Of a stretch of 64,000 nt of DNA, positions 3,344 through 14,319 are shown piece after piece. The notes under the pieces were generated by a model that was not told the origin of the DNA, searched no databases, and worked only from the letters and a program-made list of their open reading frames with translations. Each line of letters starts with the position of its first letter. Position 1 is the stretch's first letter. Made by a program: the position numbers and the translations under genes. The stretch covers positions 6,485 to 70,484 of the forward strand of contig MFLT01000012.1 of assembly GCA_001781415.1 (NCBI GenBank), in the 5' to 3' direction. The stretch comes from Candidatus Kaiserbacteria bacterium RIFCSPLOWO2_01_FULL_45_25. Lineage in GTDB: Bacteria; Patescibacteriota; Minisyncoccia; Phycocordibacterales; UBA918.

Positions 3344-6166
3344 TTATACAATTAGGTTTAAGATTTTACCAGGTACGTAGATAACTTTCCTAATCTCACC
3401 TGTTAAATACTTTTCAACTCCTTCACTATGACGAGCAGCTTCAAGCGCTTCGGCTTCACTGGCTTCGGGAGAAACTGCAATGGTCCCACGCATTTTACCA
3501 TTAACTTGGACAGCAATTGTGACAATATCATCCACAATCAGACTTTCGTCTGCCTCAGGGAATTTAGTTAGGTGGATTGATTCAGTCTTCCCTGCTGCTA
3601 CCCATAGCTCAGCAGTGAGGTGTGGAGCAAATGGCGCCAAGACTCGAAGGAAGGTCTCGTAGTCACCCGTTGTGATGCCATTTTTTTCCACATGATTAAC
3701 AAACATCATCATGGCACTGATGGCGGTATTGAATTTAAAGGTGGTAATATCCTCGCTCACCTTCTTTATGGTCTTATGAAGAAGTTTGTCAGTGTCGAAT
3801 GCTACATCAACAATATGCTCAGATAGACCGTTCACTCGCTCAAGGAAGCGCCGTACACCAGCGATACCGCCGAGGTCAAACGGATAGTTAGAACCTTCGT
3901 AAGGTCCCATAAAAGCTAAGTACATCTTAACGGTGTCAGCTCCCACCCGCTTCACGTGTTCGTCTGGGTCAATGACGTTACCTTTACTCTTACTCATCTT
4001 GTTGCCGTCTGGACCAAGGATAAGTCCACGATTGAGGCGACGACGGTATGGTTCATTTTCGGTTACCAATCCAAGGTCAAAAAGCACCTTCTGCCAAAAG
4101 CGAGAATACAGAAGGTGCATGGTCGTATGCTCCGCTCCTCCAAAATAAATATCAATCGGCATCCAGTCTTTCTGGTGAGCTAGTGAGGCGATTTCTTCGC
4201 TGTTTTTGTTATCAAGATAGCGCAAGAAATACCAAGACGAATCCACAAAGGTGTCCATCGTTTCAACTTCTGGAGTCCAGCCAGCCCCAAAGATACTTTC
4301 GGTACGCTTCTTCAGCTCCTCACTCTTAGCTAGTGGCGCCACGCCAGTTGGTTTGAAGTCTACATCCTCGGGCAAGTGCCATGGTAAATGTTCCTTTGGA
4401 ATTGGATGAGCGTTGCCCTCCGGGTCATACACAATTGGAATCGGTACACCCCAATAACGTTGCCGGCCAATTGACCAGTCTCGCAAACGGTAGGTTGAAG
4501 ACATCTTGCCGCCAACTTTTTCTACAATCTTTTCTTTTGCTGTTTCAGAGTCCAGGCCATCAAATTCTCCAGAGTTGATAATCACGCCTGTTCCAGTGAA
4601 AATTTGTCCTTCAGTGAAGGCTGCCCAACCCTTCTGGTGTCCTTCCCACGTAAGTAGATTTTTTACCTCTGACTTATCTACCCATTCAATAGTGTGTTTA
4701 CCGTCTTCTAGTTCAGAGGGCTTTTGGTCGAGCGACTTCAACTTGATATGGTAAAAAGAACTTATTGTAAGTTGATTCTTATCCTTGGTGTGTCTGTAGC
4801 CATGACCTTGTGAGGTTGTAACCACATCGCCAATGATTTCATATTCTGTAAATCCAGTTTCTTCTTCTAGTTCGCGTCCAATCGCGACCACTTGTGATTC
4901 CCCGTCAGTCCCTCCACCTACAAAGTGAATGTGGGTATGAGTCCCATCTACTTCCTTTTGAACGAGAAACTGTCCATTTGTTGGGTGTTCAATCATTAGG
5001 TCGACACATTCGCGTACTAGAGTTTCTTTTTCTGGTTTCGGCGCTGAGATGCCAGTGAAAACAATTTTTTCTGCCACCACCTGCTTCACAGGGATGCTGA
5101 ACTTCTTAGCAAACGCACCATCTCTTTCATCATGTGCTGGTACCGCCATAATCGCACCTGTTCCGTAAGAAGCTAGGACGTAGTCAGATATATAAATTGG
5201 AATCTCCTCACCCAAGGCAGGATTGGTAGCCGTAACGCCTTCTAGCTTTACCCCAGTCTTTTCTTTGGTGGTGTCTAGACGGTCTTGCTCGTCTTTTTGT
5301 TTGGCTAGAGCTACATAGTCAGCAACTTCAGCGTAATTACTGATGTTGGCCTCGTTTTGAGCTACTAGTGGGTGCTCTGGAGCGAGAACGAGGTAAGTCG
5401 CCCCGTATAGGGTGTCGGGACGAGTAGTAAAGACAGTAACACTTTCACCAGTTGAAAGTTTGAAGTCTAGCGTCGCACCATTTGAGCGGCCGATCCACTG
5501 TCGCTGCGCTTCTTTGATGTGCTCTGGCCAATCAAGCGGGTCGAGGTCATCAGTCAGTCGGTCAGCGTACTTGGTAATACGAAGCATCCACTGCGGCATC
5601 TCGCGTTTTTCGATGACATCGCCCGAGCGTTCACAAGTGCCATCACTTAGCACCTGCTCGTTGGCAATTACTGTATTGCAGCCTGGACACCAGTTCACAA
5701 TTCCCTTTCCGCGGTACGCAATGTCCTTTCTAAAGAATTCAGTAAACATCCACTGGGTCCACTTGTAGTAGTCGGCGTCTGTTGAGCTGGTGGTCTTATC
5801 CCATGAGAAAGCGTTACCCATACTAGCGAGTTGGGTCTTCATGAAGGCGATGTTGTCGTTGGTCCAGGCTTTAGGGTCGAGATTTCGTTTGATAGCAGCA
5901 TTTTCGGCAGGGAGACCAAAAGCATCAAAGCCCATTGGGTAGAGCACCTGCTTCCCCATCATACGCTTGTAGCGTACGTAGATGTCTGGCACAGCAAAAG
6001 CGTACCAGTGTCCAATATGGAGATTCCCAGACGGGTATGGCCATTCGACGAGGACGTATTCCTTTTCTTTGCTATTGTCTCGCTCTCCGACATTGTATAT
6101 GCCCTCTTCCTCCCAAATCTGTTGCCACTTCTTCTCAATTTCGCCTGAATCAAACTTTTTATGCAT
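3344..6166 (-). CDS. leuS: leucyl-tRNA synthetase with inserted Nudix-box domain
   Basis: HIGH-type (HIGHWYA), KMSKS (KMSKSKGNVI), TTRPDT editing motif, GTGAIMAVPAHDERD; ~120-aa insertion before NSGEFDGLD containing canonical Nudix box GX5EX7REUXEEXGU (GGGTDGESQVVAIGRELEEETGF). Confidence 0.95.
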   Translation of the reverse strand: MHKKFDSGEIEKKWQQIWEEEGIYNVGERDNSKEKEYVLVEWPYPSGNLHIGHWYAFAVPDIYVRYKRMMGKQVLYPMGFDAFGLPAENAAIKRNLDPKAWTNDNIAFMKTQLASMGNAFSWDKTTSSTDADYYKWTQWMFTEFFRKDIAYRGKGIVNWCPGCNTVIANEQVLSDGTCERSGDVIEKREMPQWMLRITKYADRLTDDLDPLDWPEHIKEAQRQWIGRSNGATLDFKLSTGESVTVFTTRPDTLYGATYLVLAPEHPLVAQNEANISNYAEVADYVALAKQKDEQDRLDTTKEKTGVKLEGVTATNPALGEEIPIYISDYVLASYGTGAIMAVPAHDERDGAFAKKFSIPVKQVVAEKIVFTGISAPKPEKETLVRECVDLMIEHPTNGQFLVQKEVDGTHTHIHFVGGGTDGESQVVAIGRELEEETGFTEYEIIGDVVTTSQGHGYRHTKDKNQLTISSFYHIKLKSLDQKPSELEDGKHTIEWVDKSEVKNLLTWEGHQKGWAAFTEGQIFTGTGVIINSGEFDGLDSETAKEKIVEKVGGKMSSTYRLRDWSIGRQRYWGVPIPIVYDPEGNAHPIPKEHLPWHLPEDVDFKPTGVAPLAKSEELKKRTESIFGAGWTPEVETMDTFVDSSWYFLRYLDNKNSEEIASLAHQKDWMPIDIYFGGAEHTTMHLLYSRFWQKVLFDLGLVTENEPYRRRLNRGLILGPDGNKMSKSKGNVIDPDEHVKRVGADTVKMYLAFMGPYEGSNYPFDLGGIAGVRRFLERVNGLSEHIVDVAFDTDKLLHKTIKKVSEDITTFKFNTAISAMMMFVNHVEKNGITTGDYETFLRVLAPFAPHLTAELWVAAGKTESIHLTKFPEADESLIVDDIVTIAVQVNGKMRGTIAVSPEASEAEALEAARHSEGVEKYLTGEIRKVIYVPGKILNLIV

Positions 6167-6240
6167 AACAAATCTCCCTAACCGTTAATTACGGCTTAGT
6201 ATGCCACGGGTTTGGACAGATGTAAAAATTCCTAAATAAA

Positions 6241-6280
6241 AGAAAAGCCGTCCCAAAGGAAGCTTTTCCTGGGGACGGCC
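6241..6280 (-). terminator. intrinsic terminator downstream of the ClpP-like gene
   Basis: GCCGTCCC...GGGACGGC stem plus nested AGGAA/TTCCT, U-run on minus strand. Confidence 0.5.
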
Positions 6281-6319
6281 ATTGAATTAGATGGACACAC
6301 TAGTTGTCGTCGGTTCTTT

Positions 6320-6925
6320 TTAGCGCCGATAGAGAGCTATAAGTTCTTCTTCAGAAATCACTCTGTGCACGATGCCATACTGAACTGCTTCTCGGGCTGA
6401 GAGGGTGGCATTGCCGCGCATCAGGTTCAAAAAGAGGGAAGAAGGAAGACCGGTTTGTTTCGACATGAAATCGAGCATCCACTCTTGTCCACGTCGCAGC
6501 TGATCGTGCCACTGCTTGAGGAACTCCTGCTGTGGACGTTTCGACTGCCGAGCCATTTCTTCTTCAATCTCAAGCGCGTGCTCGACGTCGCAGATGGTCA
6601 CCTCTAAACCTGGACGAAAGATTGTCCTTACTTCATGGAAGAAGTATGTCGATTCAGGTAAAGCGAGACGTTCCCTTCCGAGTAATTGCAAGACAATTGC
6701 AGCCGAGGCAACACGTTCGCCGATTGAGACAAACCCTGAACGCGCGAGAGCTGGTGCCAAGCGTGAAAAGAAGTTGAACGTGCCGCCTGGTGAGTCAATC
6801 ATCACACATGCCGAACCGTAATTTCTCTGAAGTTGCTCGAGGAGTTTTTCGATGCGGTACCCAGAAATCTCTCCTTCAAATTTTGTCATGTACATAATAC
6901 CTCCAAAGGTTGTTTGTTGAGCCAA
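6320..6925 (-). CDS. ClpP/S14-family peptidase-like protein
   Basis: IDSPGG motif (cf. ClpP INSPGG), Ser in GERVASAA, C-terminal ...LSAREAVQYGIV typical of ClpP family; true start may be an internal Met. Confidence 0.55.
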   Translation of the reverse strand: MAQQTTFGGIMYMTKFEGEISGYRIEKLLEQLQRNYGSACVMIDSPGGTFNFFSRLAPALARSGFVSIGERVASAAIVLQLLGRERLALPESTYFFHEVRTIFRPGLEVTICDVEHALEIEEEMARQSKRPQQEFLKQWHDQLRRGQEWMLDFMSKQTGLPSSLFLNLMRGNATLSAREAVQYGIVHRVISEEELIALYRR

Positions 6926-6993
6926 CCAGGAACATATAACAGTATTCGGCTGATGTCAATTTTAATATAATATAGTAAGCGTGCGTAATAAAA

Positions 6994-7425
6994 CTAAACC
7001 CGACCTGGTAGTTCGTCGTCTTTGATATTTAGTAACCAATCAGCCTTTTCTGCTTCCTTGACTTGAGTGAGGAATTTAACTTTCACTAGATCGTTAGCTG
7101 TCTCTAGTTTAGATTCATCGACATCTTCTATATAAACGTACACATCGTACATGTCAGGAGTCTTCGTCTCTACATATTTAAATGGAATCGGTTTTGAACC
7201 GTTCTTATCAATTTTAAACTTAAGCTCATCGGCCAGGGCTCGCTTTAGGGTGTCGTAGGCGGTTTCGTCCCCTAGGGTGAACCCACCAAACCCGGTTATA
7301 AGTGCCGTGTCTGTGATATTTTCAACTGGTAGTTTTTGCAGAAGAATATACCCTTCCTGATTTCGGAGGATGGCTCCGACTGACACAATTCGTCCGTCAA
7401 ACTCTAATTTTGTTTCAAATCCCAT
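6994..7425 (-). CDS. hypothetical small protein, Nudix-like fold with degenerate Nudix box
   Basis: VSVGAILRNQEGYILLQK then GGFTLGDETAYDTLKRALADELKF partially fits GX5EX7REUXEEXGU. Confidence 0.45.
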   Translation of the reverse strand: MGFETKLEFDGRIVSVGAILRNQEGYILLQKLPVENITDTALITGFGGFTLGDETAYDTLKRALADELKFKIDKNGSKPIPFKYVETKTPDMYDVYVYIEDVDESKLETANDLVKVKFLTQVKEAEKADWLLNIKDDELPGRV

Positions 7426-7475
7426 AGTAATTATTTAGGTTTGTAGTATTGCATGAGACGGTGAGAATGTGCAAA

Positions 7476-7508
7476 TAAGAAAAGCCGCCTGTTTCTGGCA
7501 GGCGGCTT
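7476..7508 (-). terminator. intrinsic terminator (GCCGCCTG...CAGGCGGC)
   Basis: 8-bp stem followed by U-run on minus strand immediately after stop of 7529..7912. Confidence 0.55.
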
Positions 7509-7528
7509 GGTCGAAGCTCTGGGGTCGT

Positions 7529-7912
7529 TCAGGCGGCTTTGGCCCAGGCTTTAGGGTTAAAGCTCCTGTGCTTAGTGTGCCAAAAGACACTTGTTTTTGG
7601 AATGTTTGGACTGTCATCAAACATGGTCAAAGACAAAACATTTTCTTCCACTTCGCGGATGTTCACGGTCTGTAGGACCATGTTTGCGATGGATACCGCC
7701 TGGGTGGGTTGAGTTTTTTCAAACGGTGTTTCGGCGTAAGGAACGATGAGAACTTGTGGAGGTGAAACTTCACCCTCGGTCTCTACATACCACTCCACGC
7801 AAAACGACTCGCTGCCATCCAGGTTTTTAGTGATGTTCGCAACGGTAACGTCAAAGCGAACGCCAAAACGGCCCATAGGCTGCCGACGAATGACCTGATG
7901 TTCATGACGCAT
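7529..7912 (-). CDS. hypothetical protein
   Basis: 127-aa ORF with own terminator; no family recognised. Confidence 0.5.
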   Translation of the reverse strand: MRHEHQVIRRQPMGRFGVRFDVTVANITKNLDGSESFCVEWYVETEGEVSPPQVLIVPYAETPFEKTQPTQAVSIANMVLQTVNIREVEENVLSLTMFDDSPNIPKTSVFWHTKHRSFNPKAWAKAA

Positions 7913-7968
7913 GATTACTCCTTCAGTTATTTATGGGAACGAGGCAACAACTACTAAATCATATATTG

Positions 7969-8003
7969 AAAAAAAGAAAAGCCGCGCCCTTTGGGGCGCG
8001 GCT
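7969..8003 (-). terminator. intrinsic terminator, member of repeated GAAAAGCCGCnCCCTTTGGGGnGCGGCT element
   Basis: GCCGCGCCC tttg GGGCGCGGC stem, long U-run on minus; near-identical copy at 8833..8872 with compensatory G>A/C>T change. Confidence 0.6.
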
Positions 8004-8022
8004 CGTTTTGGCTGTGCTTATC

Positions 8023-8358
8023 TCAAACCACGGCCATGCTGTGGTAGGCGGTGTAAGGAGTGGCCTCCACAAAAACAAAGGTCATTCCGTTGTTGAGGGC
8101 AGTGGCGTGGATGGCCGAGGCTACTTCCAGTACCAAATCTTTGCTTGCCCAATCACGCTTCACAACCAAAACTTGTTTGTTGATTCGTTGATAAAGCGTT
8201 CCGTCGTTTGGAATAAAGACTTTCATGGTCGTACCGAGCCCAGGTTCGGCCTTAACCACAAAAGTAATTTCAGACGGCTCGTTGCCACAGCCACGGACGG
8301 TCTGTCTGAGGCTGATGGAAATTTCACGACCTTTGTTGTCGTGGATTATTCTATTCAC
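8023..8358 (-). CDS. hypothetical protein
   Basis: 111-aa ORF, terminator directly downstream. Confidence 0.5.
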   Translation of the reverse strand: MNRIIHDNKGREISISLRQTVRGCGNEPSEITFVVKAEPGLGTTMKVFIPNDGTLYQRINKQVLVVKRDWASKDLVLEVASAIHATALNNGMTFVFVEATPYTAYHSMAVV

Positions 8359-8380
8359 TTAGATTCTCCTGGTTGAAGGT

Positions 8381-8776
8381 TTAAAACGAGTAGAAGTCGC
8401 CTTTGTGCGACCAAAAGATGTGGCCATCGAAACGACCAGTGCCATCAGGTCTTTCTGCGAAAAAGATTTCAGCAGTGGTATCGATGTCACGGTCGTATTC
8501 AAAGACGACAACACTGTTCAAGAAGGTGCTGGCGATATCTCTTGCCGGCACAATTTTGTTTTCTTCAGTGTCCCTGTACGGAGTGATTTTGTGTGTGAGG
8601 AACAATGGATCGGTGAATTTCACAGTGAAAGATGCGCGGACTGTTTGTTTGCCTTCCGTTACCGACCAAAGCACTCGGAAGCACTCATTGGGACTCCGTT
8701 CGCTCGGCTTGATGTCTTCGATGCGAATATGAAACTCGACACCGCTTTCAGTTTTGGCACAGTACTGGTCAATCAT
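8381..8776 (-). CDS. hypothetical protein
   Basis: 131-aa ORF co-oriented with neighbours. Confidence 0.5.
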   Translation of the reverse strand: MIDQYCAKTESGVEFHIRIEDIKPSERSPNECFRVLWSVTEGKQTVRASFTVKFTDPLFLTHKITPYRDTEENKIVPARDIASTFLNSVVVFEYDRDIDTTAEIFFAERPDGTGRFDGHIFWSHKGDFYSF

Positions 8777-8832
8777 GGTCTACTCCTTGGTGTGGGTTGG
8801 AACTATTCGTCTACAACTAAACCATAAATTTA

Positions 8833-8872
8833 GAAAAAGAAAAGCCGCACCCTTTGGGGTGCGGCTTTTCTT
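8833..8872 (-). terminator. intrinsic terminator, second copy of repeated terminator element
   Basis: GCCGCACCC tttg GGGTGCGGC with flanking A/T runs. Confidence 0.6.
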
Positions 8873-8881
8873 TCGGTTGGG

Positions 8882-9778
8882 TTAGTTCACTATCCGTTCA
8901 AAACAGTATCTTCCCTCTTTATACTGCCAGCTATTGCCATTTCTGATGAGGGCAGTTTTGTCGAAGGTTGGCCCCCACATCTCTTGTTCGGTGTTTGAGT
9001 CACGAGAGAAGGTGGCGCAAAGGTTAAAGCCTTGCTCGGTTACTTCGTAACTATAAGCAGCACGGTCTTCTGGTGCTTCTGGAATTGGGAATCCATCATA
9101 AGCTTCTTCTAGACTAGCTGGAACAGTACTACTACTTACCGCTAGAGCTTCTTCAATTTTCCACTGAATTTGTTGTAGGTCAGAAATTTGTGTTTCGTCT
9201 AACTTCATTTCACGAATGGTGTTTGGTGTCTGGCTATTGAAAAATCCCATAACAATTGCCGCAGTCACCACAACAGCCATCGCTAGTCCGTAGAGTTTTG
9301 ATTCCTTCTCACGAGTGAGCCAGTAGCCACGGGCGTCTTGAAGGTAGTAATAAAAGGCCGCTCCCACAATGAGCATCAATACTGCGGCCTTGAGTACAAA
9401 TCTGGTTGTAAGTTCCCCTTCTAGGAAACTAAGGATAACGGCTACAGCATCTCCAAGAAGCACACCGCCACCTACTAGAAGTGATAGGTATAAAAGCCAC
9501 TTAGTAAGTCCAAGATAAGCACTGTTGGTTTCGGTGCGACGGTTTTTGTTGACTTGGCGAGTGAGGGCTAGGTAAGTTGGGAAAAATACCAAAAGCATAG
9601 CTATAGCCACCCGTAGACTACTAGTTGAACTTTCAATTTGCCAATAACTTTCGGCAGCATCTTCAAAACGTAGGTTGATAATACTAAATAGTAAAACTAC
9701 TAAAAATGAAATTGATACATAAAGGGTTATTAAAGCTCCGAGCTGTAGCACTGTGTGCTTGGCTGTGTTGTTTTCCAT
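8882..9778 (-). CDS. hypothetical polytopic membrane protein
   Basis: 298 aa, ~5 predicted hydrophobic helices then soluble C-terminal domain. Confidence 0.6.
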   Translation of the reverse strand: MENNTAKHTVLQLGALITLYVSISFLVVLLFSIINLRFEDAAESYWQIESSTSSLRVAIAMLLVFFPTYLALTRQVNKNRRTETNSAYLGLTKWLLYLSLLVGGGVLLGDAVAVILSFLEGELTTRFVLKAAVLMLIVGAAFYYYLQDARGYWLTREKESKLYGLAMAVVVTAAIVMGFFNSQTPNTIREMKLDETQISDLQQIQWKIEEALAVSSSTVPASLEEAYDGFPIPEAPEDRAAYSYEVTEQGFNLCATFSRDSNTEQEMWGPTFDKTALIRNGNSWQYKEGRYCFERIVN

Positions 9779-9864
9779 ATACTCATATTATACGCCTTTC
9801 GGTGGTAAAAGGTAACAAAAGATAAGTCCCCACTAATTAAATTTGAGTGATATAATGCACCTAT

Positions 9865-10134
9865 ATGAAATCAGAAGACTTAAAGAAGGCGCCGAAGCTA
9901 TTTTGTGAAAGTATTAATGTTGGATTTACACCCGAGTATTTTGTGATGGGTTTGAGTTCTGGTACTCAAGGGGCAATTTATTCTCTTACCCCGCAGCACA
10001 CTAAACGACTCCTGCAGTACCTCACCCACCAGATAGCTGAGTTTGAAAAGCAGAACGGTGAAATTAAAGCTGAGTGGAATCCCAACATCGTGAGTCCAGT
10101 GCAGCGCATGAATCCTCCAACTGAGTTGAGTTAA
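9865..10134 (+). CDS. hypothetical small protein
   Basis: 89-aa ORF, the only plus-strand gene in this block, followed by a bidirectional terminator. Confidence 0.45.
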   Translation: MKSEDLKKAPKLFCESINVGFTPEYFVMGLSSGTQGAIYSLTPQHTKRLLQYLTHQIAEFEKQNGEIKAEWNPNIVSPVQRMNPPTELS

Positions 10135-10164
10135 AAGAAAAAGCGACCAGGAAGGTCGCTTTTG
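10135..10164. terminator. bidirectional intrinsic terminator (GCGACC agga GGTCGC)
   Basis: stem-loop with A-run upstream and T-run downstream between convergent genes 9865..10134(+) and 10194..10508(-). Confidence 0.55.
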
Positions 10165-10193
10165 TCATCGTGGAACTAGTACTCCTGCTTTGG

Positions 10194-10508
10194 CTACAGC
10201 CAATTCCTTCTGGCTTCTTTGATGGTCTCAATCATGAGTGGTGCCGCCTGTATGCTTTGCTGGAGGGCAATTTTAAAGCTTGATAGAGCCAAAATTAGCA
10301 CTTCTTCTGGCACGTCATTGGTTGGAGCACCATCAGGAAAGAAATTTTCAATGAACAAAACTGTCATCTCCTCTTTCTCACCCTCAGTTCTCTTTGTGTC
10401 AGCATTTGAGTAGAAAAGTAGCTCATCAGCCGGATTAATTCTGGCTAATTCTTCAGCTAAGGCCTCGCACTCGTCAAAGAGATTGAGGGTATGTGCGTTG
10501 TAACCCAT
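10194..10508 (-). CDS. hypothetical acidic small protein
   Basis: 104-aa ORF. Confidence 0.5.
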   Translation of the reverse strand: MGYNAHTLNLFDECEALAEELARINPADELLFYSNADTKRTEGEKEEMTVLFIENFFPDGAPTNDVPEEVLILALSSFKIALQQSIQAAPLMIETIKEARRNWL

Positions 10509-10574
10509 GATTTTCTCCTTGAATGAACAATGGCGAGGTTACTTAAAGAATAGAGTAAATTTGAGGCAAGTCAA

Positions 10575-10601
10575 CAGAAAAGCCGACCCATTGGGTCGGC
10601 T
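10575..10601 (-). terminator. intrinsic terminator (GCCGACCCA t TGGGTCGGC)
   Basis: 9-bp stem + U-run on minus after stop of 10623..10901. Confidence 0.55.
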
Positions 10602-10622
10602 TGGCTTTGTCTTTCGTCGGTC

Positions 10623-10901
10623 TCATTTTCTATGGATGAGCCGCTCCGTCGTGAGCGCTGCCTCAAGTGCCTGATTGAAGTTGTCGAACATGGCCTCAAC
10701 TGCTTCGGCCAAGGTCATGTTCTCTGTGTTTTTGGGCATGAATGTATCGATGAGCTTTTGACTGGCGTCATCAATCTCAGCTTCGGTTTTGCCGTCGGCG
10801 TCGTAGATGAGGAGTCTGTGAGTACCAGCTAGTCGCTGGAGTTCCTTGCCGTCTGCCTCACACTTCCGCATGAGGGCTTCAGCCCGTGGACTAAGTGACA
10901 T
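10623..10901 (-). CDS. hypothetical small protein
   Basis: 92-aa ORF, 10-nt gap to upstream ORF (likely bicistronic). Confidence 0.5.
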   Translation of the reverse strand: MSLSPRAEALMRKCEADGKELQRLAGTHRLLIYDADGKTEAEIDDASQKLIDTFMPKNTENMTLAEAVEAMFDNFNQALEAALTTERLIHRK

Positions 10902-10911
10902 GTTGTATCTC

Positions 10912-11238
10912 CTAGTTGTGAGACGTGGATACGGATTGATTATTCACATCAACGAACTTCTTGGCGTAAGTGCTAAGCTCCCAATACTCAACGAGTATCT
11001 CCTGCTTCATGTAAAAGCGCCTTTTCACAACCCGTTTGACTAGCGGCTCAGGGCCTCTGGTCAACGTGTCGAGAATCAGAACGATTTGGTTGTCGTGAAT
11101 CTTCTTCAAGAGACCGTCGTAGATGTCGATAACGAGCACTGGTTTGGTGTACTGCATGAGTTCCATAAAGACCGCCAGCTCATTTTCGGTGAGTAAACGT
11201 CCGGCAAAGGACGTCAGCGAGGCTTCTTTTTTGGCCAT
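10912..11238 (-). CDS. hypothetical small protein
   Basis: 108-aa ORF. Confidence 0.5.
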   Translation of the reverse strand: MAKKEASLTSFAGRLLTENELAVFMELMQYTKPVLVIDIYDGLLKKIHDNQIVLILDTLTRGPEPLVKRVVKRRFYMKQEILVEYWELSTYAKKFVDVNNQSVSTSHN

Positions 11239-11299
11239 GGTGATTTCCTTTGTAAAAGAACAATAAAATACAGCATAGAGTTTTTGGTGGTCATGTCAA

Positions 11300-11338
11300 G
11301 AAAAGCCCGGCGCCTAAAGGCGCCGGGCTTTCTTTTTA
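11300..11338 (-). terminator. intrinsic terminator downstream of ychF
   Basis: GCCCGGCGCC taaa GGCGCCGGGC 10-bp stem, U-runs both sides. Confidence 0.55.
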
Positions 11339-11514
11339 AACTACTTTACTATTATTTTGAAATTGTTATAGTGCCTGTACCACACAGAAGGGACTGGCCA
11401 ACTTCTGCTCACATCTTGGATGGTGGTTGGCTACCGCAGATGCATTGGAGGGGTTTAGTAGTGGCGAACGAACAACCCACACAAACTCTTTTGCACCTGC
11501 GGTTTTTTATATGT

Positions 11515-12612
11515 CTAAATCAAAAACTCAATCACGTCTCCGTCTTTCACTATGTAATCCTTCCCTTCAGTTCGTAACTTACCTTCAGTGCGAGCTCGAG
11601 CCAGTCCATTACATTCGACGAAGTCATCAAAGGTCACTACTTGAGCGCGGATATATTTCTTTTCAAAATCAGTGTGGATAGCGGCAGCCGCTTTTGGTCC
11701 GGTTGAACTAATTGGTACTGTCCAAGCCCGAGTCTCCTTCTCTCCAGTAGTGAAGTAACTCATGAGTCCAAGACGGTTGTAACAAGCGCGGATAAGACTC
11801 TCTACTCCACTTCCCTGTGCGCCATATTCACGACGGAAATCATTCTTCTCTTCATTTGAGAGGTCACGAAGTTCGTGTTCCATACCCGCGTCGACCACTA
11901 CGTACTCAGCGTTTGTACGTTCAAAAAATTCTACCAACTTTATCCAACGGTCATCATTCTGGTCATCGAGGTTAAAAGCATCAGTCTTCTTGTTACAGAC
12001 ATAAAGGAAAGGCTTCATAGTGAGGAGGTGTAGCCCCTTCACTACCTTGAGTTCATCTTCAGTCATTGGCAGTGCATTAGCGAGGTTTCCACCAGCTAGA
12101 TGTGGCTTCAAGCGGGCGAGGACGTCACGCTCGACTACGGCTTCCTTGTCTCCGCGCTTCGCGTCACGCTCCACGTTATTGAGGCGCTTTTCTACTGTTT
12201 CAGCATCAGCCAAGATGAGTTCGAGATTAATTACTTCAATGTCTGATAGCGGGTCGATTTCTGCTGAGACATGGTGAACTTCACTATCTTCAAAGATTCG
12301 TACTACTTCAGCAATCATGTCGGTTTCGCGGATGTTGGCGAGGAATTTGTTGCCGAGTCCTTCTCCTGAAGCAGCACCAGCCACCAAACCAGCAATGTCT
12401 ACGAACTCAACTACGGCCGGAATGATAGTGGCGGTACCAGAGATAGCCGCTAAGCTAGCAAGGCGCCCATCTGGTACAGCTACTACACCCACTGATGGGT
12501 CGATAGTGGCAAATGGATAATTAGCAATCAGAACCTCATTTTTGGTGAGGGCGGTAAACAGGGTTGACTTTCCTACGTTTGGAAGTCCTACAATTCCTAC
12601 AGATAATGACAT
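11515..12612 (-). CDS. ychF: ribosome-binding ATPase YchF (Obg-family GTPase)
   Basis: GIVGLPNVGKSTLF P-loop, NYPFATIDP, C-terminal TGS-like region; 365 aa. Confidence 0.9.
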   Translation of the reverse strand: MSLSVGIVGLPNVGKSTLFTALTKNEVLIANYPFATIDPSVGVVAVPDGRLASLAAISGTATIIPAVVEFVDIAGLVAGAASGEGLGNKFLANIRETDMIAEVVRIFEDSEVHHVSAEIDPLSDIEVINLELILADAETVEKRLNNVERDAKRGDKEAVVERDVLARLKPHLAGGNLANALPMTEDELKVVKGLHLLTMKPFLYVCNKKTDAFNLDDQNDDRWIKLVEFFERTNAEYVVVDAGMEHELRDLSNEEKNDFRREYGAQGSGVESLIRACYNRLGLMSYFTTGEKETRAWTVPISSTGPKAAAAIHTDFEKKYIRAQVVTFDDFVECNGLARARTEGKLRTEGKDYIVKDGDVIEFLI

Positions 12613-12672
12613 ATACGCGCTAGACTAACAGAGTTTTGCTAAAATCCAAAATTAATATGTGGCAGAAGTAGT

Positions 12673-14319
12673 CTAGGACTGGCTTTTAATTGCTGAGCGC
12701 AGGTACTGCATGTCGGCATCAACTTTTTTGTGAGGATTAAAGATGCGGTGTGGGTCAAATATTTCTTTGATTTCTTGGAATACATTTAGTATTTCTGGAC
12801 TAAACATTTTGTGTAGATAGGGTGTTCTAATTAGTCCGTCATTATGTTCTCCGGTAATTGAACCATGGAATTCTCCTACCAGTGTATATACTCGCTCAGA
12901 TAGTTTGTTGATGATTTGGATAAAGTCGGGACGTGAAAAATCCATTAGAGGAATAATGTGGAAGTTGCCATCGCCCACATGCCCAGCCACGGTGTACAAC
13001 AAGTTATATTCATCAAGAATGGCGTACAGTCGAGGAAGAAATTCTGGTAGATGCTCAGGTAGTACTACAAAGTCATCGATGAAAGGGGCGGTGTGTTTGT
13101 CTGAAACATTTTCACGCAAAAGTTTGAAGCTCTCACGTCTGATTGTCCAAAACTTCTGGGCTTCTGATTGATTCTTGGTGATGTGTGAGGAAACGCCAAA
13201 TGACTTAATTGATAGTTCAGCCTGCTTGGCCATTAATGCCGCTTCAGTTTCAGTGTCGGCTGCAAATTCTGCCATTAGTACTAACTTTGGAATGCCGCCT
13301 TGGAACACCAGTTTTATCTCAGGCCAAAAATCTCGTAGTAGTGTGAAGGGGTTACCACCTAGTCGCCAAAATAATTTAGGAAATACTCTTAGCATTACGT
13401 TAAAAGTTTTGTCATCATATGATTCAAAGCTCTCTGGCTTATGGGCCAAGACCGCGTTTACAATTTTGCCTAACTGAGCGAAGTGTTTTGGTCGTAAAAA
13501 TAGTACCAACATTCTTGAAGCTGGTTTTGGTTTTACAAGATTAAAAGTAATTTCTGAAATTAAACCAAGGGTGCCCTGTGACCCAACAAAGAGTTGTGTC
13601 ATATCAAAGGTGTCTGTGGTCTCGTCCCAAACATTCCAGATGCCATAACCGGCGGAGTTTTTACTAACTATTGGTTTGGCAGATTTAATTGCATCGTGAT
13701 GCTGATGAATTAATCCTTCAACTCGACGATAAATCTCACCCTCATAATTAGCTTGTGATTTTTTGGCTTCAAGTTCAGTTCTGGTTAGACGCTTAAATTC
13801 ATATTCAATTCCATCTTGTAGCACTACTTTGAGGGTGTGGACGTAACGTTCAGTTTTGCCGTACGTTAGTGACTTTTCTCCAGCTGAATTATTGGCCACC
13901 ATACCACCAACGGTGTTTAGCTCTCTACTGGCGGTGTAGCTTGGCATAATCACTCCATGTTTTAGTGTGGCTTTTTCAAAGTCACGATAAAATACGCCCG
14001 GCTGCGTGGTGGCATGGACTGTGTTTACTTCCAGTATTTGATTAAAGTAGCGAAGAAAATCTACCACAATCGAACTTGAAAGTGGCCCGCCAGACATATC
14101 TGTTCCAGCACTTCTGGCAGTGAGAGACAGCTCGCCACGTCTAGTGTGGACGTAGTGAATTAAGGTATGTAGGTCAGCAACGTTTTTTGGATAGACAACT
14201 AATTCTGGGCGAATTTTAAAAATACTTGTATCTTCACTATATTGCTCCAATACCCGATTGCTATTGTCTACATCACCGGAAAAAGTATCTGGTATAACGA
14301 TTGGGTTTAGTTTTGACAT
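12673..14319 (-). CDS. FAD-linked oxidase (PCMH-type FAD-binding; D-lactate dehydrogenase/GlcD-like)
   Basis: SAGTDMSGGPLSSSIVVDF FAD-binding motif, C-terminal ...EIFDPHRIFNPHKKV typical of FAD-linked oxidase C-domain. Confidence 0.75.
   Translation of the reverse strand: MSKLNPIVIPDTFSGDVDNSNRVLEQYSEDTSIFKIRPELVVYPKNVADLHTLIHYVHTRRGELSLTARSAGTDMSGGPLSSSIVVDFLRYFNQILEVNTVHATTQPGVFYRDFEKATLKHGVIMPSYTASRELNTVGGMVANNSAGEKSLTYGKTERYVHTLKVVLQDGIEYEFKRLTRTELEAKKSQANYEGEIYRRVEGLIHQHHDAIKSAKPIVSKNSAGYGIWNVWDETTDTFDMTQLFVGSQGTLGLISEITFNLVKPKPASRMLVLFLRPKHFAQLGKIVNAVLAHKPESFESYDDKTFNVMLRVFPKLFWRLGGNPFTLLRDFWPEIKLVFQGGIPKLVLMAEFAADTETEAALMAKQAELSIKSFGVSSHITKNQSEAQKFWTIRRESFKLLRENVSDKHTAPFIDDFVVLPEHLPEFLPRLYAILDEYNLLYTVAGHVGDGNFHIIPLMDFSRPDFIQIINKLSERVYTLVGEFHGSITGEHNDGLIRTPYLHKMFSPEILNVFQEIKEIFDPHRIFNPHKKVDADMQYLRSAIKSQS

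What the first reader, a model, noticed from the sequence alone, without database searches (positions are those of the whole stretch)
6994..11340. Run of eight small orphan genes, each with its own intrinsic terminator, including a duplicated 38-nt terminator element
Seven minus-strand ORFs of 92-143 aa and one plus-strand ORF of 89 aa lack recognisable families. Nearly every gene is followed by a strong GC hairpin with a U-run.

Two terminators, 7969..8003 and 8833..8872, are near-identical: GAAAAGCCGC[G/A]CCCTTTGGGG[C/T]GCGGCT. They differ by one compensatory base pair, which indicates selection on the hairpin.

The layout looks like an accessory gene cassette region. The smallest proteins (10194..10508 acidic, 10623..11238 adjacent pair) could be toxin/antitoxin or anti-defence-type modules. 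One member (6994..7425) has a degenerate Nudix box, interesting alongside the LeuRS Nudix insertion.
Basis: seen in the sequence. Interest (0 to 1): 0.5.

Follow-up and report, generated by a model that had tools for sequence, protein, structure and literature searches.

The report
Variable small-gene cassettes in a Kaiserbacteria genome
This stretch of a groundwater Kaiserbacteria (candidate phyla radiation) genome is a strain-variable patch: small, fast-evolving genes of unknown function, most with a predicted promoter and terminator of their own, sit between conserved genes. It is tidy but fairly ordinary genome plasticity, not a recognisable toxin or defence system.

Summary
The ORFs, the hairpins and the two near-identical terminators are real, but this is not "eight orphans, each with its own terminator".

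- **Conserved genes.** Three genes are conserved: o5 (DUF5671 membrane protein), o6 (DUF3467) and o1 (Nudix fold, 94-95% identical in sister species).
- **Cassettes.** The rest form four predicted promoter-CDS-terminator units: o9-o8, o7, o4-o3 and o2. A ClpP-like unit lies just outside the range.
- **New families.** o2 and o4 belong to family A. An exhaustive profile search of 1.84 billion proteins gave only 19 hits at E<=0.001, about 16 of them small proteins. o7 and o8 belong to family B. Non-synonymous change is about 10-30 times that of the neighbouring genes.
- **Variation.** Cassette number, order and content differ among eight related genomes or contigs.
- **Junctions.** One relative lacks exactly o4 and o2, with junctions in repeated non-coding sequence.
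- **The duplicated terminator.** It is the 5' end of a 68-nt or longer upstream module shared by family A genes. The compensatory pair is real, and a half-changed A.C state exists in one relative.
- **Function.** No TA, defence, phage, Pfam or fold match was found, so protein function remains unknown.

I rate it as modestly interesting.

The parts
11301..11332 (-). Hairpin terminator after YchF (bidirectional). Its U-tract runs straight into the -35 of the next unit.
   Evidence: -30 kcal/mol, z -6.1.
11272..11299 (-). Promoter-like site TTGACA-16-TATGCT for o9-o8.
   Evidence: The same layout occurs in K3 after YchF. This is a consensus match only.
10912..11238 (-). o9, 108 aa, a singleton with no relatives detected. 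It is the first gene of the o9-o8 unit.
   Evidence: pN/pS is 0.16 against strain variants. It is not a family B member. The AF2 model is unusable (pLDDT 39).
10623..10901 (-). o8, 92 aa, family B.
   Evidence: Paralogue of o7. 44% identical to K3_104. Alignment A3. pN/pS 0.28.
10580..10602 (-). Hairpin terminator after o8, with tail CGGCTTTTCT.
10547..10574 (-). Promoter-like site TTGACT-16-TATTCT for o7.
   Evidence: The same layout precedes K3_104.
10194..10508 (-). o7, 104 aa, acidic (pI 4.3), family B.
   Evidence: pN/pS 0.22.
10139..10163 (.). Bidirectional hairpin between the convergent genes o7 and o6.
9865..10134 (+). o6, 89 aa, DUF3467-like conserved core gene.
   Evidence: Pfam 24.3 bits. 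64-78% identical in GTDB relatives and 94-97% in K2 and K3.
8882..9778 (-). o5, 298 aa, DUF5671 membrane protein.
   Evidence: Pfam 56 bits. Syntenic in 21 relatives. Hydrophobic segment.
8777..8874 (-). Family A upstream module, copy B. It holds the hairpin 8874-8835, a U-tract, the TATGGTTTAGT box, and the GTTCC...CAACC...AGGAG leader.
   Evidence: -31 kcal/mol.
8381..8776 (-). o4, 131 aa, family A (gamma branch).
   Evidence: 52% identical to K7. Absent in K4.
8023..8358 (-). o3, 111 aa, GTG start, a singleton co-transcribed with o4. It competes with the antisense ORF 7933-8376.
   Evidence: Codon score 0.23 against 0.00 for the antisense ORF. 94% nt identity in K4, where it stands alone behind a family A-type module. 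Not a family A member.
7913..8004 (-). Family A upstream module, copy A. It holds the hairpin 8004-7979, a U-tract, the TATGATTTAGT box and the leader.
   Evidence: -23.8 kcal/mol.
7529..7912 (-). o2, 127 aa, family A (beta branch).
   Evidence: 34-36% identical to K2_125 and K3_162. Profile searches. AF2 model pLDDT 69.6. Absent in K4.
7482..7508 (-). Hairpin terminator after o2. Its tail GCGGCTTTTCTT is the right-hand junction of the o2 indel.
6994..7425 (-). o1, 143 aa, a conserved Nudix-fold protein with a degenerate Nudix box.
   Evidence: Pfam NUDIX 22.9 against a cut-off of 21.1. PDB DR0079 at E 0.003. 94-95% identical in K2 and K3, with dN/dS 0.03-0.05.
6246..6959 (-). ClpP-like cassette just outside the finding. 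It holds promoter-like TTGACA-17-TATGTT (6959-6931), a CDS at 6320-6925 and the hairpin 6280-6246.
   Evidence: It is replaced by a HAD gene in K2 and K4 and absent in K3.

Best explanation
**What it is.** The stretch is a flexible islet in the chromosome of a Candidatus Kaiserbacteria bacterium.

**Conserved genes.** YchF, DUF3467 (o6), the DUF5671 membrane protein (o5), the Nudix-fold protein (o1) and LeuRS form the conserved frame.

**Inserted units.** Between the conserved genes sit self-contained transcription units, each a promoter, a Shine-Dalgarno site, one or two small CDS and a hairpin terminator. The units are o9-o8, o7, o4-o3, o2 and the ClpP-like gene.

**Gene families.** Four of the small genes belong to two clade-restricted, tandemly duplicated, fast-diverging families: A (o2, o4) and B (o7, o8). 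o3 and o9 are singletons.

**How the units work (inferred).** Each unit carries its own start and stop signals. It can therefore be gained, lost, duplicated or reordered without disturbing its neighbours.

**How the units turn over (shown for two junctions, otherwise inferred).** Turnover runs through recombination between the repeated non-coding pieces: the terminator tail GCGGCTTTTCTT and the CAACC..AGGAG leader.

**The duplicated terminator.** It is the first part of a 68-105-nt module that precedes family A genes in all related genomes examined. The module consists of a hairpin, a U-tract, a TATGRTTTAGT box and a GTTCY..CAACC..AGGAG leader. The near-identity of the two hairpins is specific to this lineage. 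It is best explained by a local duplication or recombination event, followed by one compensatory change.

**Protein function.** Function is not established. The proteins are soluble, have no signal peptide or membrane segment, and have no known fold. Their evolutionary pattern fits binding proteins involved in some fast-changing interaction with a host, a phage or competitors. That last step is inference only.
For: **Organism and real genes**
- The window is identical to a 964,844-bp ENA scaffold. The proteins are deposited as hypothetical proteins of Candidatus Kaiserbacteria.
- The annotated frame has the best codon score for every gene.
- pN/pS against strain variants is 0.16-0.28 for o7, o8 and o9, and 0.02 for o1.
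- Every gene except o1 has a Shine-Dalgarno site.

**Core genes against inserts**
- The order YchF - DUF3467 - DUF5671 - LeuRS is conserved, and the cassette genes are absent in GTDB relatives.

**Families**
- o2, o4 and three K2 proteins align colinearly with invariant W41, A76, L80 and W111.
- A profile search of 5.8 billion proteins gave 8 clusters.
- An exhaustive search of 1.84 billion representatives gave 19 hits at E<=0.001. About 16 are small proteins of 117-162 aa.
- Family B: o7 against o8 gives E 3e-5, and o8 is 44% identical to K3_104. Alignment A3.

**Variable content at one locus**

| Genome | Between DUF5671 and the Nudix gene or LeuRS |
|---|---|
| Window | gamma (o4) - o3 \| beta (o2) |
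| K2 | alpha \| beta \| gamma |
| K3 | alpha - beta \| gamma |
| K4 | o3 only |
| K5 | beta only |
| K7 | beta \| gamma, then LeuRS |

- K6 is a partial contig that shows a gamma gene directly after DUF5671.
- K8 is a 993-bp contig with two family A genes in tandem.

**Rates**
- dN is 0.25-0.83 for families A and B, against 0.02-0.03 for YchF and the Nudix gene.
- dN/dS between K2 and K3 is 0.20-0.28, against 0.01-0.05.

**Junctions**
- K4 matches window 9150-8815, 8375-7970 and 7488-6995.
- The last two matches overlap by 16 nt on the shared tail GCGGCTTTTCTT.

**Module and tails**
- Twelve upstream modules align.
- TATGRTTTAGT occurs only twice in the window, against 0.07 expected.
- CGGCTTTTCT occurs six times, against 0.15 expected. 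All six lie at hairpins within 6241-10585 and none elsewhere in the 64 kb.

**Strain mosaicism at cassette borders**
- L086 is 99-100% identical through o5-o8. It diverges sharply straight after the hairpin at 8840-8866.

**Lineage-specific hairpins**
- Hairpin stems at orthologous positions differ between species.

**Composition**
- GC3 of the accessory genes is 0.45-0.65 (0.50 or more in all but o7), against 0.40 +/- 0.08 for training genes.
Against: - Promoters are consensus matches only. Promoter-like sites are not enriched (8 found against 9.3 expected), and the family A promoter is not clearly sigma-70-like.
- There are no transcript data.
- K4-K8 are single short metagenome contigs (0.9-4.5 kb) that could be chimeric.
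- dS is saturated between species, so positive selection cannot be separated from relaxed constraint.
- Some "orthologues" may be exchanged paralogues.
- The rest of the 965-kb genome could not be scanned for further copies of the module or tail.
- The shared hairpin frame GCCG..CGGCTTTTCT could partly reflect convergence on an efficient terminator.
- Protein function is wholly unknown. The only usable model (o2, pLDDT 69.6) has no significant fold match.
Confidence: 0.75

Rival explanations
1. The small genes are toxin-antitoxin or anti-defence/defence modules.
For: - The genes are small, strain-variable and fast-evolving, with autonomous promoters and terminators.
- o9 and o8 are co-transcribed with a 10-nt gap.
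- o9 has a faint winged-helix-like Pfam hit (TBPIP, E 0.079).
- o7 and o8 are acidic.
Against: - There are no hits in PADLOC, Pfam, NCBIfam or PHROGs for o2, o3, o4, o7, o8 or o9 beyond noise.
- o7 and o8 are paralogues of each other, not a complementary pair, and a terminator and promoter lie between them.
- Family B stands alone in K2. It occurs three times without any o9 relative in K3.
- Family A genes occur singly (K5) or in arrays with no conserved partner.
Confidence: 0.1
2. The inserts are remnants of a prophage or other mobile element, that is, true phage morons left in the chromosome.
For: - The promoter-gene-terminator layout matches the definition of morons (PMC3594210, abstract seen).
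- The ClpP-like protein gives weak PHROG hits to head maturation proteases (E 3e-4 to 5e-3).
- The accessory genes have atypical GC3.
Against: - The scanned region 5500-13000 holds no integrase, capsid, terminase or other phage gene, and no tRNA gene. The two tRNA genes of the window lie at 32 kb and 36 kb.
- A scan of 2.9 million viral contigs with the concatenated small proteins found nothing.
- No PHROG hits exist for the small proteins.
- Family A genes sit at the same chromosomal junction in eight related genomes or contigs. This points to long residence and in-place diversification.
Confidence: 0.07
3. The two terminators are alike only by convergence. Efficient terminators in this genome tend toward one GC-clamped stem and a UUUUCUU tail, so nothing was duplicated.
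For: Five hairpins of unrelated genes in the locus share GCCG...CGGCTTTTCT. Relatives have similar GCTTTTCTT tails on different stems.
Against: - Identity covers the whole stem and the loop (26 of 28 positions).
- By my own count of the alignment, it continues for 40 nt beyond the hairpin at about 72% identity, giving 68 nt at 81%.
- The downstream genes are paralogues.
- K4 carries the same hairpins with a half-changed pair.
- The roughly 20 other terminators in the window do not share the sequence.
Confidence: 0.05
4. Some of the ORFs, above all o3, are not genes. The region is partly non-coding, or is coded on the other strand.
For: - Some gene callers chose the antisense 147-aa ORF 7933-8376 instead of o3.
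- o3 has a GTG start and no relatives outside its 90%-identity cluster.
- No variant informative for pN/pS was analysed.
Against: - The o3 frame scores 0.23 against 0.00 for the antisense ORF.
- The antisense ORF would translate through the terminator hairpin.
- o3 has AGGAG seven nt upstream of its start and is kept intact at 94% nt identity in K4 behind its own module.
- The other genes are supported by family conservation or by pN/pS.
Confidence: 0.05

Closest known systems
Phage morons, which are independent promoter-gene-terminator units inserted between conserved genes (PMC3594210)
   Same: - The units are single-gene or two-gene, with a predicted promoter and an intrinsic terminator.
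- They are present between the same two flanking genes in one genome and absent in a close relative.
- Their base composition is atypical.
- Their content is unrelated to the neighbouring genes.
   Different: - They lie in a bacterial (Patescibacteria) chromosome with no phage context.
- Many of the units are diverged paralogues that seem to have multiplied in place rather than arriving from outside.
- There is no evidence of benefit to a host.
Flexible genomic islets, or hypervariable regions between conserved core genes in bacterial populations
   Same: - The islet sits at a fixed chromosomal position flanked by core genes.
- Content differs between strains and species.
- Co-occurring strains show mosaic identity patterns that indicate homologous recombination.
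   Different: - The scale is very small (0.4-1 kb units).
- Each unit is transcriptionally insulated.
- Indel junctions fall in repeated regulatory sequence rather than at tRNA genes, integrases or insertion sequences.
Tandem arrays of diverged immunity or orphan-immunity genes of polymorphic toxin systems
   Same: They are arrays of small, soluble, rapidly diverging paralogues whose copy number varies between strains.
   Different: - No toxin gene or toxin domain is adjacent.
- There is no match to any immunity family.
- Every paralogue has its own promoter and terminator.
Integron gene cassettes
   Same: They form a serial array of small, exchangeable, mostly unknown-function genes separated by imperfect hairpin-forming repeats.
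   Different: - No integrase or attI was seen among the ORFs of 5500-13000.
- These cassettes carry their own promoters.
- The hairpins are GC-rich stems followed by a U-tract (terminators), not attC sites.

Membership tests
Rho-independent (intrinsic) terminator | A GC-rich stem-loop followed directly by a U-run, placed just after a stop codon. | tested here: met
   There are six hairpins in the range and one after the ClpP-like gene. Stems have 10-18 pairs, dG is -15 to -31 kcal/mol, z is -3 to -7.8, and each has a U-run. Termination itself was not measured.
Nudix hydrolase superfamily (o1) | A Nudix fold detected by profile. | tested here: met
   Pfam PF00293 scores 22.9 bits against a cut-off of 21.1, covering residues 12-125. 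PHROG MutT/NUDIX gives E 0.0013. PDB DR0079 gives E 0.003.
Nudix hydrolase superfamily (o1) | The catalytic Nudix box GX5EX7REUXEEXGU. | tested here: not met
   Read from the sequence: G-FTLGD-E-TAYDTLK-R-A-L-A-D-E-L-K-F. RE has become RA, EE has become DE, and the final G has become K. The box is degenerate although the protein is under strong constraint (dN/dS 0.03-0.05). Catalysis is doubtful or altered.
Type II toxin-antitoxin module | Two adjacent co-transcribed small genes from known toxin and antitoxin families, co-occurring as a pair across genomes. | tested here: not met
   There are no family hits. o8 occurs without o9-like partners in K2 and K3, and o7/o8 are paralogues split by a terminator.
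Known anti-phage defence systems (PADLOC) | A match to a defence-system protein model. | tested here: not met
   There are no hits at E<=0.1 for any small protein. o5 has one noise-level hit.
Phage moron | An independent transcription unit (promoter and terminator) present between two genes that are adjacent in a related genome. | tested here: met
   The o2 unit and the o4 gene are absent in K4. The ClpP-like unit is absent in K2, K3 and K4. The promoters are predictions only.
Phage moron | Residence in a phage or prophage genome. | tested here: not met
   There are no phage genes nearby, the viral-contig scan was negative, and there are no PHROG hits for the small proteins.
Integron cassette array | An integron integrase with attI, and promoterless cassettes bounded by attC sites. 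| tested here: not met
   No integrase appears among the ORFs of 5500-13000. The cassettes have promoter-like sites and Shine-Dalgarno leaders, and the hairpins are followed by U-tracts. attC models were not run.
DUF5671 (o5) and DUF3467 (o6) | A Pfam profile match. | tested here: met
   o5 scores 56.4 bits against a cut-off of 28.4. o6 scores 24.3 bits against a cut-off of 25, so it is just below and partial. It is a clear orthologue of proteins marked DUF3467 in relatives.
Family A (new; o2, o4) | A 117-162-aa soluble protein with invariant W41, A76, L80 and W111 (o2 numbering), encoded directly downstream of the DUF5671 gene. | tested here: met
   Alignments A1 and A2. HMM scores are 97-131 bits for members and below 3 bits for all other local proteins. 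The locus position holds wherever the upstream flank is on the contig (window, K2, K3, K5, K6, K7); K8 is a 993-bp contig with two family A genes and no flank; K4 has none.

The most novel reading that the evidence does not exclude
The shared hairpin frame and tail (GCCG...CGGCTTTTCTT) would be more than a terminator. It would be the recombination substrate of a dedicated cassette-shuffling locus in Kaiserbacteria. The locus would be an integron-like or moron-like array without an integrase, in which promoter- and terminator-bearing units encoding fast-evolving interaction proteins (families A and B) are captured, duplicated, reordered and deleted at terminator tails. That would generate strain-level diversity in how these episymbionts deal with hosts or phages.
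Probability: 0.12. Interest if true: 0.65.

Novelty: new member of a known kind. Interest (0 to 1): 0.3.

Why it matters
- **Annotation.** The work turns a block of "hypothetical proteins" in a candidate-phyla-radiation genome into a defined object. That object is two previously undescribed, clade-restricted small-protein families, two singletons and a conserved degenerate Nudix protein, arranged as insulated cassettes that turn over between close relatives.
- **Biology of these bacteria.** Such loci are candidates for the genes that mediate the poorly understood host or phage interactions of Patescibacteria.
- **Mechanism of turnover.** The locus gives a clean small-scale example of repeated regulatory sequence, rather than mobile-element machinery, marking the break points of gene gain and loss.
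- **Limit.** Without a function for the proteins it remains a modest, descriptive result.

Tried and rejected
1. **Concatenated queries.** Both homologous-protein searches returned nothing, not even the query proteins, which are in the collection. I treat both as technically uninformative, not as negative evidence.
2. **BLASTP of o2 against o4.** It found nothing. Paralogy emerged only from shuffled Smith-Waterman scores (z 5.4-5.7) and from the bridging K2 and K3 sequences.
3. **o3 and o9 as diverged family members.** Rejected: HMM scores are about 1 bit or lower.
4. **Structure.**
   - The afdb50 library was unavailable.
   - The o9 single-sequence model is unusable.
5. **PDB sequence searches.** Family B, o9 and o3 gave nothing.
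6. **Rfam at E<=1 across 6100-11700.** Only sub-threshold hits, driven by the terminators.
7. **Collection scans.**
   - The viral scan found nothing.
   - The family B alignment was too divergent for the metagenome scan.
   - The single-protein metagenome scan gave one near-identical 2-kb contig.
8. **o1 as a copy of the Nudix insertion in the window's own LeuRS.** Rejected: no similarity.
9. **CARDB repeats.** The family A profile gives weak multi-repeat hits to CARDB-repeat giant proteins. I judge these beta-strand pattern matches, not homology.
10. **An operator-like palindrome around GGTTTAGT.** It is complete only in K5, so I did not pursue it.

Full report
**1. What is in the sequence**

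The finding lies between LeuRS (3344-6166, minus strand), a ClpP-like gene (6320-6925, minus) and YchF (11515-12612, minus).

| Label | Coordinates | Strand | Length (aa) |
|---|---|---|---|
| o1 | 6994-7425 | - | 143 |
| o2 | 7529-7912 | - | 127 |
| o3 | 8023-8358 | - | 111 |
| o4 | 8381-8776 | - | 131 |
| o6 | 9865-10134 | + | 89 |
| o7 | 10194-10508 | - | 104 |
| o8 | 10623-10901 | - | 92 |
| o9 | 10912-11238 | - | 108 |

A ninth gene in the range, o5 (8882-9778, 298 aa), was not counted.

Terminator-like hairpins are enriched: 23 against 7.5 +/- 2.8 in shuffles of 5500-13000. The main ones fold at -15 to -31 kcal/mol. The range holds six such hairpins, not one per gene:

| Position | Hairpin (minus-strand coordinates) |
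|---|---|
| After YchF | 11332-11301 |
| After o8 | 10602-10580 |
| Between the convergent o7 and o6 | 10163-10139 |
| After o5 | 8874-8835 |
| After o3 | 8004-7979 |
| After o2 | 7508-7482 |

A seventh follows the ClpP-like gene (6280-6246). o9-o8 (10-nt gap) and o4-o3 (22-nt gap, with a Shine-Dalgarno site) read as two-gene units. o1 has no hairpin.

Two of the hairpins are followed directly by canonical promoter-like sites:
- TTGACA-16-TATGCT at 11299-11272.
- TTGACT-16-TATTCT at 10574-10547.

A third promoter-like site, TTGACA-17-TATGTT at 6959-6931, precedes the ClpP-like gene but follows no hairpin.

**2. The duplicated terminator**

The pattern GAAAAGCCGCGCCCTTTGGGGCGCGGCT matches exactly two places in the 64 kb, 7976-8003 and 8839-8866, with two mismatches (0 expected).

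The repeat is longer than stated. It covers 68 nt at 81% identity, 7936-8003 against 8799-8866. On the transcribed strand it runs from the hairpin through the U-tract and about 40 nt further, toward the start of the next gene.

**3. Source and reality of the genes**

The window is 100% identical to part of a 964,844-bp ENA scaffold. The proteins are deposited as hypothetical proteins of Candidatus Kaiserbacteria bacterium, accessions OGG69668-OGG69677.

- **Coding potential.** A codon model trained on 23 long ORFs of the window scores the annotated frame highest for every gene. o3 scores 0.23, against 0.00 for the antisense 147-aa ORF that some gene callers preferred.
- **Selection.** Against strain variants L089 and L086, pN/pS is 0.22 (o7), 0.28 (o8), 0.16 (o9) and 0.02 (o1).
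- **Localisation.** None of the small proteins has a hydrophobic segment that would suggest a signal peptide or membrane helix.

**4. Core genes against inserts**

I fetched 80 loci around YchF from one genome per species. The conserved order is YchF - DUF3467 (opposite strand) - DUF5671 - LeuRS, and it is fully compact in L004. o5 and o6 are found there (30-55% and 64-78% identity). o2, o3, o4, o7, o8, o9 and the ClpP-like gene are not.

Other close relatives carry unrelated genes at the same junctions. These include a histidine kinase with a response regulator, GIY-YIG proteins and an endonuclease/exonuclease/phosphatase (EEP) family protein.

**5. Closer relatives resolve the orphans into families**

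Exact-protein look-ups led to sister genomes.

K2 (L087, 715-kb contig) has the following amino-acid identities to the window:

| Protein | Identity to window |
|---|---|
| YchF | 96% |
| LeuRS | 90% |
| o1 | 95% |
| o6 | 97% |
| o5 | 75% |

Between DUF5671 and the Nudix gene, K2 has three small genes of 155, 125 and 127 aa. K3 (L093) has genes of 154, 162 and 126 aa in the same place.

*Family A*
- o2 matches K2_125 and K3_162 at 34-36% identity (E 1e-17 to 1e-21).
- o4 matches K2_127 and K3_126 at 25-26%.
- o2 against o4 gives z = 5.4-5.7 over shuffles.
- All members align colinearly, with invariant W41, A76, L80 and W111.
- I call the three branches alpha, beta and gamma.
- A profile search of 5.8 billion proteins found 8 clusters.
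- An exhaustive HMMER search of 1.84 billion representatives found 19 hits at E<=0.001. About 16 are small proteins of 117-162 aa, and the rest are weak hits to CARDB-repeat giants.

*Family B*
- o7 and o8 are paralogues (34% identity, E 3e-5).
- Their relatives are K2_106 and K3_94a, K3_94b and K3_104. o8 is 44% identical to K3_104.

o3 and o9 belong to neither family.

**6. The locus varies in content and order**

| Genome | Between DUF5671 and the Nudix gene or LeuRS |
|---|---|
| Window | gamma (o4) - o3 \| beta (o2) |
| K2 | alpha \| beta \| gamma |
| K3 | alpha - beta \| gamma |
| K4 (L095) | o3 only |
| K5 (L096) | beta only |
| K6 (L097) | gamma first |
| K7 (L098) | beta \| gamma, then directly LeuRS with no Nudix gene |
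| K8 (L101) | two family A genes in tandem |

Two other junctions vary as well:
- Between YchF and DUF3467, the window has o9-o8 | o7, K2 has one family B gene and K3 has three.
- Between the Nudix gene and LeuRS, the window has the ClpP-like unit, K2 and K4 have a HAD gene and K3 has nothing.

**7. Rates**

| Genes | dN | dN/dS (K2 against K3) |
|---|---|---|
| YchF and the Nudix gene | 0.02-0.03 | 0.01-0.05 |
| DUF5671 | 0.20 | not computed for this pair |
| Family A and B pairs | 0.25-0.83 | 0.20-0.28 |

dS is saturated, so positive selection cannot be shown.

The accessory genes have GC3 of 0.45-0.65 (0.50 or more in all but o7), against 0.40 +/- 0.08 for the training genes.

**8. Junctions**

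K4 is the window's closest relative here (94-97% nt identity). It lacks exactly o4 and o2. It matches window 9150-8815, 8375-7970 and 7488-6995. The last two blocks overlap by 16 nt on GCGGCTTTTCTT, the tail shared by the hairpin after o3 and the hairpin after o2.

The o4 indel lies between the family A leader (GTTCC..CAACC..AGGAG) and the similar CAACCAGGAG in front of o3.

The second hairpin of K4 reads GAGCCGCACCCCAAAGGGGCGCGGCT. It has an A.C mismatch exactly where the window's two copies differ, which is the half-way state of the compensatory change (one contig only).

Strain L086 is 99-100% identical from o5 to o8. It diverges sharply directly after the hairpin at 8840-8866, into the promoter and o4. 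L089 is a mosaic in the opposite sense. Recombination break points therefore cluster at cassette borders.

**9. The upstream module**

Twelve intergenic regions that precede family A genes (and o3 in K4) align as follows:
- a hairpin;
- CTTTTCTTTTT;
- the box TATG(A/G)TTTAGT;
- GTTCYT;
- CAACC;
- AGGAG.

The box occurs only at these two places in the window (0.07 expected). Hairpin stems at orthologous positions differ between species: the stem reads AAGCCGCACCCC in the window, GACCGGACCC in K2 and GTCGGACC in K3. The near-identity of the window's two hairpins, shared with K4, is therefore a lineage-specific event.

The 10-mer CGGCTTTTCT occurs six times in the window (0.15 expected). All six are at hairpin tails between 6241 and 10585, and none is at the roughly 20 other terminators of the window.

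**10. Function**

No PADLOC, NCBIfam or PHROG family matches o2, o3, o4, o7, o8 or o9 at E<=0.1, and Pfam gives only noise-level hits for o8 and o9 (E 0.02-0.2).

- **o9.** It could not be modelled.
- **o1.** It is a Nudix-fold protein (Pfam above the cut-off; PDB DR0079 at E 0.003). Its box is degenerate, with RE changed to RA, EE to DE and G to K, and it is under strong constraint.

The toxin-antitoxin idea fails on pairing. o7 and o8 are paralogues split by a terminator, and family B occurs without o9.

I commit to the following reading. These are soluble binding-type proteins in a fast-changing interaction. This step is inference from evolutionary pattern only, and I give it about 25% confidence.

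**11. Comparison with known systems**

The layout works like phage morons, defined as independent transcription units that add "more on" between conserved genes (PMC3594210), and like flexible genomic islets. It is not in a phage: the viral scan and PHROGs are negative. It is not an integron, because there is no integrase and the cassettes have their own promoters. It is not a known immunity array, because no toxin is present.

**12. Verdict**

- The "accessory cassette region" reading is supported.
- The toxin-antitoxin and anti-defence readings are not supported.
- The terminator duplicate belongs to a duplicated regulatory-plus-coding unit.
- The result is a well-resolved but essentially ordinary case of small-scale genome plasticity involving two new small-protein families.
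- Interest is 0.3.

Noticed in passing
window 11333-11514 (minus strand), between the YchF stop codon and its terminator: A 182-nt non-coding segment has a long stem (CCGCAGGTGCA...TGCATCTGCGG) and folds far better than shuffles (226 nt including the terminator: -79.8 kcal/mol, z -5.8). It is present in the window, in L089 (92%) and in K2 (78%). It is absent in strain L086 and in K3, where the YchF stop is followed at once by the terminator. No Rfam family reaches threshold; L20_leader scores 30 bits against a gathering score of 58.7. It could be a small RNA, a 3'-UTR element or a non-coding indel.
   Followed up: partly
window 7990-7993 (loop of terminator copy A): Assembly L082 is identical to the window over about 20 kb, apart from a scaffold gap at 11304 and a flipped hairpin loop here (TTTG to CAAA). 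This is an inversion of the loop within a perfect palindromic stem. It could be a template-switch variant or an assembly effect.
   Followed up: partly
window 6246-6959: The ClpP-like gene (201 aa, Pfam CLP_protease E 1.4e-7 on the C-terminal part only) is itself a promoter-gene-terminator unit that relatives lack. K2 and K4 have a HAD-family gene at that spot, and K3 has nothing. By eye the Ser and His of the ClpP triad seem kept and the Asp is replaced by Asn. This was not tested.
   Followed up: partly
window 3344-6166 (LeuRS): The Nudix insertion in LeuRS (940 aa) is missing in the close relatives K2 (802 aa) and K4 (823 aa), although the rest of the protein is 85-90% identical. It is present in several more distant relatives (L003, L005, L006, L010). 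The free-standing Nudix-like o1 shows no similarity to the window's own insert. It does hit the LeuRS insert of L007 at 28% identity (E 4e-8).
   Followed up: partly
window 7933-8376 (plus strand): A 147-aa antisense ORF overlaps o3 and translates through the terminator hairpin. Gene callers chose it instead of o3 in some assemblies of the same sequence (L081, L083) and chose o3 in others (L082, L084).
   Followed up: yes
L089 and L086 against window 6900-11600: Co-occurring strains are mosaics. L089 is 100% identical across ClpP-like and o2-o5 but 93-98% across o1, o6-o9 and YchF. L086 shares the o9 SNPs of L089 but is identical in o7 and o8. This points to frequent homologous recombination within this locus.
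   Followed up: partly
tool behaviour: the search for homologous proteins with concatenated queries returned no hits at all. It did not return even the constituent proteins, which are in the collection and were returned by the later profile search. Negative results from concatenated queries should not be trusted.
   Followed up: yes
window 6241-10585: The exact 10-mer CGGCTTTTCT (hairpin 3' shoulder plus tail) is found only at the cassette terminators of this locus: six hits against 0.15 expected. It is found at none of the other terminators in the 64-kb window.
   Followed up: partly
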